Below are positions 6,162-17,418 of a stretch of 64,000 nt of DNA, piece after piece. Both the position numbers and the translations under genes were made by a program. How positions within the stretch are numbered: the stretch's first letter is position 1; every line of letters starts with the position of its first letter. This DNA comes from Spironucleus salmonicida (taxonomy: Eukaryota), in the NCBI RefSeq assembly GCF_000497125.1, contig NC_090596.1:496001-560000 (forward strand). Direction: 5' to 3'. A model generated the notes under the pieces. It searched no databases, was not told the origin of the DNA, and saw nothing but the letters and a program-made list of their open reading frames with translations.

Positions 6162-7771
6162 TTTAAAATATTAAGATTTTTATTTAGCATACGATCAAGC
6201 TATCAAAATAAATTATTGAGTAGCCGCGATAGTATAATATTATCAAATAAAACAGTACTATGTAAAATTCCAAGTTATACATTTAATTATACTCTAAAAT
6301 TCAATACCAAAATTATGTGTATAAGTTTTTAAGTCAATGGTATTTGACATACATGAATTTCTAATATGATTGATTATTTTAAATTAATCTCTGATAAATA
6401 CTTATATCGTAATAAAATATTTGTTAATGCCTTAGCTTTATATAATACATACTAAATAGAATGGTAGAGATTAATTGGATGCTTATAAATTATAAATTTG
6501 TCAAAGCTTATAGGGCACTAATAAGTTTAAAGGCAACTGTTGTACATTTTATATTAATTTCTATATTAAATACGCATATCAAATAGAACTCTTACTCAAA
6601 GAAAGGCTATTGTATTACCGGATTGATTTCATTTAAAACTCAACCAATAAAATATATTATTATATCTTAAAATATTAAACATATAAATTAAAAATATATT
6701 TATAAAATATTAGTAGTTGATTCTTGCATTTTTGAATAATATATGCCATTATTTATTTAATTCACTATACATATATAAATCTTGTCACGAAACTTATCCC
6801 TCTCATATTTTGGATATCCTGTATTCTAAACTGCTATCTCTTTTACGCTTAAGATGCTCAATGTATAAATTAGGTAATTAGATAAGCTTCGTTATGTAAT
6901 ACTGATATTTTAAGTTTATTAAACATATTCTAAATGATATTTATATTTTATTTATGTTATCAAAATATTATAATTACTTAATTTCAAATTTTCAAGCATA
7001 TATATTATATTTAATATCAACTCTATGTTAAAATTAATCATTTATTTTATATGTTTCATATTATATTTTTTATTCTAATTATTAATCAGCAATGAATATA
7101 ATTTTAATTTATTTATTAGTACTTTTTATACATTTTTACAATTTTAGAATAACTCTTGCTAAATTATATATTTGTCTATATATTTTCGATATTTTTACAT
7201 TAAATTAATATTGATACACTAAAATATTAATTAAATATAAATGAAAACAATTAATTTTGCAGACAAATACTAAATAGATAATATTATTTTATCTAAATTA
7301 GCAATACTTTCATCAAATGTAGCTTTTACTTTCAAAAATACTAATATCTCACGAAAACGTGTTTGAACTTCTTGGTATCTACCCAGATGAATCATTTGCG
7401 TTAGCAAACGATATATACCTAAAGAAATCTTTTTAAAAGGTTGATAATTTTGTTGGTACAATTGACGGTCAAACTTTCATTTTTGATAATCTAAAACTAG
7501 ACACGTCAGAGGCAACAAGTGAAATGCTCGAAGAATTTTCAGGCGTTATTAGCAATTTAGCATTGCGTTTTGCACAGTTCGATACTGGAACTCCTACTAA
7601 CGTTTATGGGATCTCGCAAAACTTGAAAGGCACGCTCAGCAAAATTTCAATTTAAGCAGAAATTTCAGTTGATGGTACAACGCCTTAATCGTATTTCTTG
7701 CTGGGCAGCACGGTCTCTGCGAGCATATCGGGCCTCTGGGCGAGCATTACCCTGACCGCCGCAGGGGCAAG
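6162..7771. repeat. 1.6-kb inverted repeat with 55000-56609 (upstream region plus first ~150 codons of copies B and D)
   Basis: Mirror coordinates sum to 62771 (ATG 7317 vs 55454; ORF 7270..7461 vs 55310..55501). Includes ~1.15 kb of non-coding AT-rich DNA. Confidence 0.93.
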
Positions 7772-10700
7772 ACAGGCCATGAGCGTGTCGTTTGCGAAGA
7801 CCTTCACAGCATCAGTCACAGACTCAACCTTCGTATCGTCATTCCAGTCAGATACCCCCCTGAGCAGCGCATTCACCGCGCTCTGCCAGGCTAACAACGC
7901 AGCGACCTCCTCAAACATCACGGTCCGGGCCGACTTCAAAAACATACTGGTGACCACCCCGGGCATGTCACTGATCGCCAACTCATTCCAGGCTGCACTG
8001 GATAAGTATCACGTATACGTCAACGTCAGCTTTCGCGACACCCTCGGCAGCCCGCTGAGGAGCCTGTTTCTTATTTCGCAGTCCCTGCCTGCCGGAGTGC
8101 TCATTTCGCAGCTGCATGTGACCGCGTACATTGACGCGGAAACGCAGGGACTATCCGCCCTGTCCTTCTTGCCTAACGTGGAGGGCCTCGTAATGGTCTA
8201 GTCTTATATCCGGTTCACACTAAGGTCTTCATCTGCTACCAACTTCTAGTTTCAGATCTTCCAGGGAGCTGGGAACCAGGTAACTATCCGCAACACGTCC
8301 TTCATCGGGAACGTGACGAAGTTCACCAACGGAAATTACTCTACCGTCTCACAGCAGCTAGACAACTCCAACATCGAGTCCTGCTCCTTCTATATCCTGT
8401 TTAGCTTACTGCAAAAGGCAGTTAATAAAATTTCTGTGACTGGAATTGCCTAGTAGACAACCGCCACAAATATAAAATACTCTAATTTATATTTTTCTGA
8501 AGTATAAGACTCATAGGTGGCTGAAATAACTTTGGAGTCAATAATGCGAAATGGCGACGGAGGCACTATTTCATTTCTCAGTTCTTATTTCTTTTTATAA
8601 CAAGCATTAAAAAGCACATATCTCCAACACCAAAACACCTTCATTACTGAAGGTTCATCTATGATCATTCGTAATTGTCTTGTTATTGTTAATATGACTA
8701 TGAGTATTGGCTCTAACTGTGAATATGGATTACTAGCTTAAAATACAACAAACAGCATCTTTGAAAATCTTACCCTATAAATTTTAGTCGAAATAGGGTA
8801 TAGTAACCAGACTTGGTCTGTTTTAGGATTTAAACTACATTAGAATACTTACAATAATATTGTTGTTTATGGTAATGTTACATTTTCTGATCATAATTAT
8901 TAGACACCAATAACAGTTCTAGCATATTATATTCAGGACTGCAACATAGATAGTATTTTCATGGGATATCAGGTTCTTTCTCCTACTTTAAGTTAATTAA
9001 AAACATATAAGTTTCTAATATATGAAAATAAAGGAGGTAATTCTATATAAAATTGTATATATGTCGGTTTATATATCAACTCTACTATCATGGTTGCATT
9101 TATGCCAGATGGGATACCAAGCGGCTTCACCGACTCTGTGGATTTGAAGCTAATTTACTCGCACCAGGAAAATAGGTACAAGTACTCCACCGACTCGCAA
9201 ATAACCATAACGACTGAAAATCTGAGAAGGCCCGCTTACATGAAGACTGTGCCCCAGTTTGATTCCAACATTTGGTACTACACGCCCGCCGTAAATGCGG
9301 ACTACCCTCGATTTGCCTACGCCTTTTTACAAAGCGTATGGCAGTTTGAGCCATATGCAGGCTTCGACACAGGCTTTACCGAACTAGTTTCTGGAACTTT
9401 AACAAAAAATCATTTTCAGCCGAAGAACGGTCCCAACCTCTGCCAGATGGAGTGCCAGGGAACATGGACCTTCTGGGACACGCCGCCCACCTGCCTCAGC
9501 GGATTCACAGGCCCGCTGTGCCAGATCGACTGCGCGGCAAGCCCTTGCCAGAACAGTGGGAAATGCACCGACGGCAAATGCGAGTGTGTGGGTGGGTTCT
9601 CTGGGTTAGCATGCGAAATTGCGCACTGCGATGGCTGCTCCGAGACGTGCGAGCTAGTTCTGGGCGATACGTTCTAGTGCGGCAGAGCCTGTGTGCCTAT
9701 GACCACCTGTATCCAGGGCACGTGCACAGAAAATATCTGTGTCTGCAACGACGATATTAGCTCCGGCATCGGCGATGCCGTCCAATGTAACAAGGAGGAC
9801 TCATGCATCTTCGACGGATGCGGGGATCTGGGGGTGTGTATGAACGAGAAGTGCGAGTGCCGGCCAGTGGTCTCCATTGAAATCGACGGAACATGCCGCT
9901 AGGTCACTTTCCCGGAGCTGGGCGAGTGCGGTGTTATCGATGACACGTACGAATGCATTTCTTGTTTGGGGGACCGACTCGTGCCGCTGTGTGTGGACTG
10001 TATCGACGACTACAAGGAATACGACTCAGTCTGCTATCCAGTTTGCGCAGACTGCAATGGAGACTGCGTGACCATATCCGGTACAGAGATACACTGCTTT
10101 ACCTGCCTGGACAGTTTTGCGGTGCCAGAGTGCAAAGAGTGCATACCGGACCACAAAGAGGCGGATAAAGTTTGCTATGAGATCACGAACGTAGGCAAGG
10201 GCGACTGCTGGCTGAAGGATGGCGCGACGGTGTGCGCCAGTTGCCTTAACAACTACGCCATGCCTACCTGCGCGGACTGTATCCCAGATTACTTGGAGAA
10301 CAACGGCATTTGCTACCCAATATGCCCGAGCACCGAGTGCCGGGGCGATGGGTGCCTTATGCCCACGAGCACAACTTTTAAGTGTGCCTCTTGTCTCAGC
10401 GGATTCAAAATGCCGGAGTGCAGGGAGTGCATAACAGGATATAAAGCAGTGGGCGAGTAGTGCTATGAGATCATTTAGGAGGACCAGGGAGACTGCTGGG
10501 ACCAAGAGGGAGTGCCGACATGCGCCTCCTGCATCAACAATTACCAGCTGCCAGACTGCCAGCAATGCATACCCGATTATCTTCTTGTCAGTGCCGGCTG
10601 TCTGGAAATTTGCAAAGACTGCCATGGCGCCAAGTGCGTCATCACTGCGGCCGCTGAGGGTATCTGCGAATCCTGCGACCCGGGGTTCAAGATGCCCGCG

Positions 10701-16000: not shown

Positions 16001-17418
16001 CACTTCAAAAGGCACTCTCCGTCGACCATCAAATAGCCATCATCACAAGTAGAGCAGTCTGTCCCCGCATATGCCACGTCGCAGCTTGAACACTCGATAT
16101 TGGCCTGATCATTAAAATAGCATTCGCCATTGCAGCTAAGGCACTTCAAATAGCAGAATCCATTCTTCGCCACACTTAGGGAATCACAGTCCTCGCAGTG
16201 GTCGCCTGAATAATTTGGCTTGCAGCCTGAGCATATACTAAGGGTAGCACCGGCTATCGGGACACTAGCAAACTATACTCCTGGATTGCATACAAACTTC
16301 CCACCGACACTCAGACAACCTAAGCAGCCTAGGATACAGCTATTTTTAACCTACTTTCCATTGGGATCCTTTTTCAAGACAGAACCTAAGTTGACCAGCT
16401 CGCTTTCAAACGGTACCTGTATGATGTTTATTCTGGCAATGACGGTATACATAGCGTAGTACTCTAACTCGCAGTAGTCTAGACAGTCGCCATCATACAT
16501 CTGATGCGGATACGCGCAATGACACATTGGGCCTATACAGGTGTTATCGAATAGGCTAGTATCGCAGGAATATGCGGAATCTCGGCAATCGAAAACGTCG
16601 CAATTAAGGCCTTTCCAGCCATACTCACAAACGACTCCGTTATCTTCGCACCTTCCGTTTACTACGGTATTGCAGCGGTAGCATGTGTTTTGCAGTGATT
16701 AAGTGCCATCAAAGCACGCGCAGACGCTACCTACACACTCGCCAAGGCCTTCGCATGGGTTAATAGAGTCGAAGTCGCAGTGATAGTCAAGGCACCCATC
16801 GTGCTGCGAATACCCATTATTGCATACGCAGCCTTTCCCATCTACGCAATCTCCGTGCATGCAGTTGGAAGCTGTGCATTGGAAGAAGCAAAAAGATTTG
16901 TCCGCCGAAAGTTCAAACCCTGCCTCGCAGCCGGTGCAAAAGGTAGAGGCGTCCTCCTTATAGAAGCAGGTCCCGTTGGGTGTTTCCTGGACCTTGTAGC
17001 AAGCTCCATTCGCCACTCCGTATTCCGGAATGCACGAGTCACACCAAGTCCCTGCCACGTGAGGGTCGCATTCGCAAACTTCATCCACTAGGCACGACCC
17101 GTAGACGCAATTGGCCTTCGTGCACTCGGGGATGCATCGGGTCGCATCCTGCGACAGTACGAAATCTGGGTCGCACGAAATGCAGAGAGTGGCGCCATCT
17201 TTTTCGATGCAGCTCCCGTTCGCATTCAGTACTCCCGGGTGGCACGCCCCTTCGTAAAGCACAAAAGTCTCGCCGCACTGCTAGCAGCTAGGCATGGCAA
17301 ACCCGGGGTGACAGGACTCGCAGGAGCTTGAGCCGCTTTCCACATAGCACCCCGTGCCGTAGCAGTCGGTGCAGATCTCCATGCAGTGGAATTCGACCTC
17401 TTCGAAGCCCTCCTCGCA
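13009..17418 (-). pseudogene. Cysteine-rich surface protein, copy C: 5'-truncated C-terminal half with TM anchor and SLC35F/DMT-like domain
   Basis: One frame through ORFs starting at 17262, 16173, 15543 and 14934, to TGA at 13009-13011. Family homology starts at 17418. No in-frame ATG between the upstream TGA (17521-17523) and Met 17382. Tail is frameshifted at ~13250 relative to copy D. Confidence 0.75.

What the first reader, a model, noticed from the sequence alone, without database searches (positions are those of the whole stretch)
7317..17418. Split gene that a single inversion would repair: candidate DNA-inversion switch between secreted and membrane-anchored forms
Seen: copy B (+) has the start and N-terminal half but breaks at 11930. 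Copy C (-) has the C-terminal half and breaks at 17418. Their only overlap is a 795-bp inverted repeat (11136-11930 / 16624-17418). Crossover within it flips 11931-16623 and joins B to C in frame, giving 8229 nt, against 8295 for intact copy D. As assembled, B encodes a 1564-aa anchorless product and C has no start. Inference: either a reversible recombinational switch (phase-variation-like; Giardia VSP switching is not thought to use DNA rearrangement), a fixed historical inversion, or a mis-oriented assembly across the repeat. No recombinase gene is visible, so host homologous recombination would be needed.
Basis: partly seen in the sequence, partly recalled or inferred. Interest (0 to 1): 0.8.

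Follow-up and report, generated by a model that had tools for sequence, protein, structure and literature searches.

The report
Parasite gene copy broken by inversion
In a fish parasite, one copy of a large surface-protein gene was most likely broken once by a small inversion that duplicated its break point, an ordinary kind of rearrangement, and a near-identical intact copy next door leaves little reason to expect a reversible switch.

Summary
The geometry is real: a 795-bp inverted repeat (1 mismatch) flanks 4,693 bp, with B and C in register. The organism is a code-6 diplomonad; database proteins 95-100% identical are named Spironucleus salmonicida. The switch reading is weak. An intact copy A lies next door, identical to C over 4,121 of 4,122 bp. 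C's own tail is old and frameshifted, so a flip would not give a fully intact gene. In-frame joining is automatic for two copies of one stretch. No tyrosine or serine recombinase was found; Rad51 was. Inverted repeats like this are common (10 pairs in 459.5 kb), and another family copy is broken by a similar inversion that cannot reverse. Short-read contigs carry both junctions at single-copy depth but cannot show orientation. The proposed read/PCR test is confounded by A and D. Best reading: a fixed inversion with a breakpoint duplication among gene-converted paralogs. B carries D's upstream region and may be transcribed as a soluble fragment (weak hint). The scan noted a similar inversion on other DNA of this genome (e1-7142109, unchecked).

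The parts
1..5423 (-). Copy A, intact 2766-aa paralog; continues to G000:C1:493123, left of the window. Head-to-head with B.
810..5059 (-). Arm in A of a larger 4250-bp inverted repeat (99.8%) shared with B 7681-11930; spacer 2.6 kb holding both 5' ends
6162..7727 (+). D-type upstream region and first 137 codons of B (99.3% to D 6162-7775; 1150 bp upstream 99.5%)
7317..12011 (+). Copy B: 1564-aa ORF, mosaic of D-type and A-type tracts, putative short signal leader, 28 CxxC, no TM
11136..11930 (+). Repeat arm r, end of B's family sequence (codons 1274-1538)
11931..12011 (+). B's foreign 26-codon tail, read from the antisense strand of C's downstream DNA
11931..12953 (-). Single-copy AT-rich DNA downstream of C (Y); no remnant of a family gene
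12954..13296 (-). C's own old paralogous tail (32-35% aa identity to A's tail, GC3 0.12), frameshifted near 13250-13255
   Evidence: no indel in DNA contigs
13297..17418 (-). Body of copy C, identical to A at 4121 of 4122 bases; ORF from an internal ATG at 17382 to 13009 (1457 aa)
13333..14409 (-). One TM helix followed by a DMT-fold multi-helix module
11931..16623 (.). The 4693-bp segment between the repeat arms (the inferred inverted block, with r')
   Evidence: inference
16624..17418 (-). Repeat arm r', start of C's family sequence; C-specific base at 17411
17419..18080 (.). Essentially single-copy intergenic DNA (Z) abutting C's 5' break; no remnant of a 5' half
47160..55454 (-). Copy D, intact 2764-aa paralog; conversion partner of A, B and E
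59602..64000 (+). Copy E, 5' part broken by stops and frameshifts; 3' part (right of the window) 99.9% identical to D; head-to-head with D

Best explanation
One old paralog (B+C) once lay on the + strand head-to-head with A, as E lies with D. Gene conversion overwrote most of it with A sequence and its 5' end with D sequence, leaving only its tail and downstream DNA as its own. A single repair event then inverted its 3' half with the downstream DNA. The break in the gene was staggered (or a template switch re-copied it), so 795 bp ended up on both sides in inverted orientation. The arrangement is fixed in the sequenced culture. Rad51 recombination across the repeat may flip it at a mutation-like rate, as for any inverted repeat here, without a regulated role. 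Shown: geometry, mosaic tracts, frameshifted tail, both junctions in short-read contigs. Inferred: the single ancestral gene, the staggered break, the order of events, fixation of the orientation.
For: The layout 5' half + r, inverted downstream DNA, inverted 3' half, r', unique DNA is what an inversion with one staggered break gives; PMC1885836 (passages) reports this for 17 of 29 Drosophila inversions, duplications 46 bp to about 1.9 kb, often from one side only. No remnant of the missing halves lies in Y or Z. DNA contigs cover 11901-13326 and 17381-19000 at depth 10.9 and 12 (X1) and 9.1 and 9.0 (X3), like the neighbouring unique DNA (12; 11.8), and no joint is listed, so no direct Y-Z allele was seen. 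A second family copy at G000:C5:400141-408041 has the same flip of 3' end plus downstream DNA relative to its intact donor at C5:420980-427282, but with deletions at both breaks and no inverted repeat, so it cannot reverse. 10 inverted-repeat pairs of 500 bp or more, 97% or more identity and spacer up to 15 kb lie in the 459.5 kb examined. 8 of 20 matches to the TM module lie outside a full-length ORF. No PF00589 or PF00239 match in the genome. The tail frameshift fits relaxed selection.
Against: No read spanning the repeat was available, so orientation and its uniformity are untested; both junctions exist in either orientation. No outgroup shows the ancestral Y-Z join. All of B's 5' half is borrowed from A or D, so nothing of its own ties it to C's old tail. 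The left junction contig holds 30 letters of the repeat, one short of the tool's bridging rule. X1 and X3 are one sample and may be the source of the assembly. The 459.5 kb were chosen around family loci, so the repeat count is biased upwards. The recombinase searches read TAA/TAG as stops read through, which may cost sensitivity. Rad51 is present and conversion between copies is evident, so rare flips are not excluded.
Confidence: 0.62

Rival explanations
1. B and C never were one gene. C is an old minus-strand paralog that lost its 5' half and is kept identical to A by conversion; B is a separate partial inverted duplication (D-type 5' end, A-type body). Their 795-bp overlap is incidental, or comes from one multi-step template-switching event. 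Fixed, no switch.
For: B is wholly a mosaic of A and D (the mid-body pattern recurs in database protein P0005, 3 mismatches to B against 7 to A and 10 to D). Truncated inverted copies occur elsewhere, e.g. 779 bp at G000:C5:392231-393009 / 399039-399817.
Against: Needs two or more events whose ends happen to tile the gene with one short overlap, with B's break landing about 1 kb downstream of C; no trace of C's lost 5' half in Z.
Confidence: 0.2
2. A 795-bp piece of the gene was first inserted in inverted orientation downstream of the intact gene, and a later Rad51 crossover between the two copies flipped the block once; now fixed.
For: Rad51 is present; copies exchange sequence; same end product.
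Against: Needs two steps where a staggered break needs one; no orphan-fragment intermediate was seen in contigs, which cannot show orientation anyway.
Confidence: 0.07
3. The block is mis-oriented in the assembly; the true state is a continuous gene with an orphan inverted fragment downstream.
For: Contigs cannot span r (they break at 16624/16653 and 17381/17410); the region holds 4-kb near-identical repeats with A.
Against: A read of about 0.9 kb running a - r - Y settles the orientation, and a 1.92-Mb contig through many multi-kb repeats implies reads far longer than that (inference). Depths fit the assembled copy numbers (r about 3-4.5 times, A/C-only stretch about 1.5-2 times single copy; the tool warns that depth is no copy number).
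Confidence: 0.06
4. A reversible, functional switch: host recombination across r/r' flips the block often enough that clones differ, giving either a soluble ectodomain (B) or a membrane form with the carrier module.
For: The substrate exists; Rad51 exists; B has D's upstream DNA and a plausible leader. In two runs guessed to be RNA, the contig through the repeat carries A/B-type letters at 5 of 5 D-diagnostic sites inside r but D-type letters at the sites listed just outside it, which would follow if B adds transcripts in r (weak, one study, depends on how the assembler picks a path).
Against: Intact A and D already supply the membrane form, and RNA-guess contigs bridge A's TM region to A's tail and run a - r - c. 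The flipped gene would have a frameshifted tail. No site-specific recombinase. The repeat is one of many, and the longer, closer A/B repeat would be the better substrate. The repeat ends fall at arbitrary codons, with no site motif seen.
Confidence: 0.05

Closest known systems
Inversions with inverted duplications at the breakpoints, staggered-break model (Ranz et al. 2007, PMC1885836; passages read)
   Same: Inverted duplication of formerly unique gene sequence at the two ends; size within the reported 46 bp to 1.9 kb; one-sided duplication is the commoner case there.
   Different: Here the block is only 4.7 kb, the break is inside a multigene-family member, conversion with other copies keeps the arms 99.9% alike so identity does not date it, and no outgroup polarises it.
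Bacterial invertons / phase variation, including intragenic invertons (PMC10028968; passages read)
   Same: Inverted repeats flank a block whose flip would change a protein.
   Different: Those use a site-specific recombinase and are shown by reads in both orientations; neither was found here. That paper also reports false calls at one repeat longer than 750 bp.
Spironucleus CRMP2 cysteine-rich membrane proteins (PMC3916229 passages; PMC9509377 first third and passages)
   Same: Many CxxC/CxC motifs, C-terminal TM, arrays of duplicated copies with pseudogenes (248 genes plus 30 pseudogenes reported), gene conversion suggested by the authors.
   Different: This subfamily is 2,100-2,770 aa with a DMT-fold module after the TM helix; neither paper's passages mention inversions or such a module.
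Giardia VSP switching (PMC8957917; passages read)
   Same: Cysteine-rich surface family in a binucleate diplomonad; genes often head-to-head.
   Different: Control is described as post-transcriptional (RNAi-like); nothing here shows exclusive expression.
DMT-superfamily carriers: LicB 7paf, SLC35B1 9i20, CMP-sialic acid transporter 6oh3, PfCRT 6ukj
   Same: Predicted fold of the C-terminal module (E 2e-4 to 1e-3, TM-score 0.44-0.61).
   Different: 10-15% identity; no Pfam or PDB sequence match; transport is not shown.

Membership tests
Invertible phase-variation switch | Inverted repeats flanking the block | tested here: met
Invertible phase-variation switch | Site-specific recombinase in the genome | tested here: not met
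   0 matches for PF00589 and PF00239 in G000, controls rang in 14 and 12 of 14; other recombinase types not searched
Invertible phase-variation switch | Both orientations present in a population | not testable with these tools
   only short-read contigs were served; none spans the repeat with unique flanks
Invertible phase-variation switch | Each state gives a distinct functional product | tested here: inconclusive
   flipped product nearly equals A and has a frameshifted tail; B's expression only hinted
Staggered-break inversion | Inverted duplication of non-repetitive gene sequence at both ends of the inverted block | tested here: met
Staggered-break inversion | Parts can be ordered into one ancestral arrangement without leftovers | tested here: met
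   B and C tile the gene with r as sole overlap; no remnants in Y or Z
Staggered-break inversion | Outgroup shows the ancestral order with a single copy of the repeat | not testable with these tools
   no relatives held for G000; no direct Y-Z joint in contigs
CRMP2 (definition of PMC3916229) | Three or more CxxC/CxC motifs | tested here: met
   55 CxxC in A and D, 28 in B, 34 in C
CRMP2 (definition of PMC3916229) | C-terminal TM domain | tested here: met
   met for A, C, D by hydropathy and model; not met for B
CRMP2 (definition of PMC3916229) | Absence of the CRMP1 [KR][KR]X[KR][KR] signature | tested here: inconclusive
   A and C read KKEKK just after the last TM helix, D reads KQEKK, so the CRMP1/CRMP2 label is not settled
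DMT superfamily (C-terminal module) | About ten-helix DMT fold | tested here: met
   model pLDDT 71.8; all 10 Foldseek matches with E <= 0.001 are DMT carriers
DMT superfamily (C-terminal module) | Transport activity | not testable with these tools
   needs an assay

The most novel reading that the evidence does not exclude
Host homologous recombination flips the 4.7-kb block often enough to act as a recombinase-free switch between a secreted cysteine-rich ectodomain and an ectodomain fused to a carrier, the first DNA-inversion switch in a diplomonad. A milder version (about 0.25): the inversion is fixed but created a transcribed, secreted 1564-aa ectodomain driven by D's upstream region.
Probability: 0.05. 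Interest if true: 0.8.

Novelty: new member of a known kind. Interest (0 to 1): 0.2.

Why it matters
As a fixed inversion it is a clear small example of how this parasite's surface-gene families turn over: conversion makes mosaics, local inversions break copies, and truncated forms arise. It also shows that in this genome near-identical inverted repeats are background, so geometry alone cannot argue for a switch. If both orientations were found at real frequency, it would be a DNA-level variation mechanism in a group where only RNA-level control is described. If B is secreted, it gives a natural soluble form of an uncharacterised ectodomain-carrier protein.

Tried and rejected
Standard code: only short ORFs; code 6 gives the genes. 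Pfam found 0 families in B, C and D (the fourth query was on the wrong strand and means nothing). Sequence search of solved structures with the TM module: 0 matches. No RNA holder listed; X5-X8 are guesses. The RNA-guess contigs do not cover B's tail, Y or C's tail: no evidence either way, since contigs drop rare branches and short dead ends, and it is one study. Short-read contigs cannot give orientation. Older database proteins P0004-P0011 confirm the species and B's mosaic but none reaches B's tail, so they do not test the junction. Polyadenylation-signal scan: useless, as the expressed control gene has no such motif either. Low-stringency search for a paralogous Y-Z join in the fetched DNA: only short AT-rich matches. 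Dating by identity rejected: converted tracts are GC3-rich (0.65-0.81) against 0.12 in C's own tail, so the arms may be kept alike. Paper searches 'Spironucleus + inversion' (11 listed of 15) and 'diplomonad, DNA inversion, phase variation, gene conversion' (18 listed) showed no title on inversions in this organism; listings only, none opened. Look-ups of earlier findings by words and by sequence gave nothing. Supplements of the genome papers were not opened and may list these loci.
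Full report
Setting. The window reads in genetic code 6 (TAA and TAG = Gln): the standard code gives only short ORFs, code 6 gives genes of up to 2764 aa. It is G000:C1:496001-560000. Database proteins that match these genes at 95-100% are named Spironucleus salmonicida, a diplomonad fish parasite. The gene family has 20 matches to its TM module in G000, 12 of them in ORFs over 2000 aa. 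Near the finding lie A (minus strand, intact, 2766 aa, running off the left edge), B, C, D (intact, 2764 aa), E (broken) and F (2757 aa).

The observation. The inverted repeat is 11136-11930 / 16624-17418, 795 bp, with one mismatch 8 bases from C's break. B and C are in register, and the lengths 8229 and 8295 are right. Being in register says nothing about design: r and r' are copies of one coding stretch, so any exchange between them keeps the frame. Three points need correcting. C has an in-frame ATG at 17382 (1457 aa), and that protein is in the public collection. C is identical to A at 4121 of 4122 bases but only down to 13297; beyond that it has its own tail, homologous to the tails of A and D (tblastn E 4e-9 and 7e-10) but frameshifted near 13250-13255, with the family motifs in another frame that ends at 12954. 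DNA contigs of both runs laid show no indel there. So a flip would not give a fully intact gene.

B is a mosaic. Its 1150 bp upstream and first 137 codons are D-type (99.3-99.5%), 7754-9395 is A-type, and six later bases are D-type again. The mid-body pattern recurs in an older database protein, P0005. Shared tracts are GC3-rich (0.65-0.81) while C's own tail is at 0.12. This is the pattern of repeated gene conversion between copies, and it means that the 99.9% identity of the arms does not date the event (a caution prompted by e1-7142188 and e1-7274599). Beyond codon 137, B differs from A at 4 residues and C's body at 0 of 1109, so the flipped product would be almost A with D's N-terminus and a damaged tail.

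Reads. Eight runs from 2 studies hold the stretch, all as short-read contigs; 4 were laid on 11860-19000. In X1 and X3 (one sample, possibly the source) one contig covers 11901-13326 and another starts at 17381 and runs into Z, at depths equal to neighbouring unique DNA. The first holds 30 letters of the repeat, one short of the tool's bridging rule; the second holds 38. No joint is listed, so no allele with a direct Y-Z join was seen. Depths over r and over the A/C-only stretch fit four and two copies, with the tool's warning that depth is no copy number. Both junctions exist in either orientation, so orientation stays untested. In X5 and X6 (guessed to be RNA) contigs bridge the TM region to A's tail and run through r into C-type sequence. 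That second contig has D-type letters at the sites listed just outside r but A/B-type letters at 5 of 5 diagnostic sites inside r. This would follow if B adds transcripts in r, which fits its D-type upstream region; it is a weak hint from one study.

Mechanism. The order 5' half + r, inverted downstream DNA, inverted 3' half, r', unique DNA is what one inversion with one staggered break produces (PMC1885836, passages: 17 of 29 Drosophila inversions, duplications 46 bp to about 1.9 kb). No remnant of a missing half lies in Y or Z. The ancestral gene would have faced A head-to-head, as E faces D. A control lies on contig C5: a copy at 400141-408041 has its 3' end and downstream DNA flipped relative to the intact donor, with deletions at the breaks and no inverted repeat. 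Local inversions thus break copies of this family whether or not they leave a reversible substrate. Near-identical inverted repeats with short spacers are common: 10 pairs in 459.5 kb, a sample chosen around family loci. No tyrosine or serine recombinase family matched in G000, while Rad51 did. Rare flips by ordinary recombination are therefore possible, as at any of these repeats; nothing points to a regulated or frequent one.

Rivals. Separate partial duplications or a multi-step template switch (0.20) cannot be told apart without an outgroup, because B has no sequence of its own in the 5' half. Insertion of r' followed by one crossover (0.07) gives the same product in two steps. Assembly mis-orientation (0.06) is unlikely, since a read of about 0.9 kb settles it and the contig is 1.92 Mb, but it is not excluded by my data. 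A functional switch (0.05) has the substrate and nothing else.

The path from about 11050 through r into C-type sequence is present in A and D, so it is positive in any state. Only Y - r' - Z marks the flipped state; upstream - r - Y and Z - r' - C body mark the assembled one.

Comparison and novelty. It works like the staggered-break inversions of Drosophila, inside a family that the genome papers describe as rich in duplicates and pseudogenes (PMC3916229 and PMC9509377, passages). It fails the recombinase test for a bacterial-type inverton (PMC10028968, passages), and the both-orientations test could not be run. Giardia VSP switching is described as post-transcriptional (PMC8957917, passages). 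Two paper searches showed no title on inversions in this organism (listings only). The scan has noted a similar inversion and a similar rejected switch on other DNA of this genome (e1-7142109, e1-7142305; unchecked). My reading was stated before those look-ups. Verdict: a real feature, a new member of a known kind, interest 0.2.

Noticed in passing
window 810-5059 / 7681-11930: A longer (4250 bp, 99.8%) and closer inverted repeat between A and B surrounds both 5' ends. A crossover there would swap the A-type and D-type upstream regions between the full-length and the truncated body; it is a better substrate than r/r'.
   Followed up: partly
G000:C5:400141-408041 (L029): Second family copy broken by inversion of its 3' end plus downstream DNA, with deletions at both breaks and a further 3.2-kb deletion; intact donor at C5:420980-427282.
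   Followed up: yes
G000:C5:392231-393009 / 399039-399817 (L045): 779-bp inverted repeat (99.9%) 6 kb apart: a 223-aa Arg/Asp-rich gene and a copy that diverges near one end.
   Followed up: partly
G000:C1:493123-493482 (L046:123-482): A's tail is single-copy yet GC3-rich (0.73, against 0.21 in D's tail), as if it once had a conversion partner that is now lost.
   Followed up: partly
window 18082-18474 (+): Small gene of about 130 aa, RidA/YjgF-like by eye (label recalled, not searched), covered by deep contigs with a poly(A) loose end in the RNA-guess runs.
   Followed up: no
window 12337 and 18504: One-base differences between the assembly and DNA contigs, probably assembly slips in AT-rich DNA.
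   Followed up: no
window 45108-46078 region; G000:C1:537948-542008, 582896-586956, 603791-606203: The block downstream of D, with a GC-rich gene at 44905-45693, recurs several times nearby in both orientations.
   Followed up: no
window 59602-64000 and L007: Copy E has a decayed 5' half but a 3' 4.9 kb that is 99.9% identical to D, still holding a 1028-aa ORF with the TM module.
   Followed up: partly
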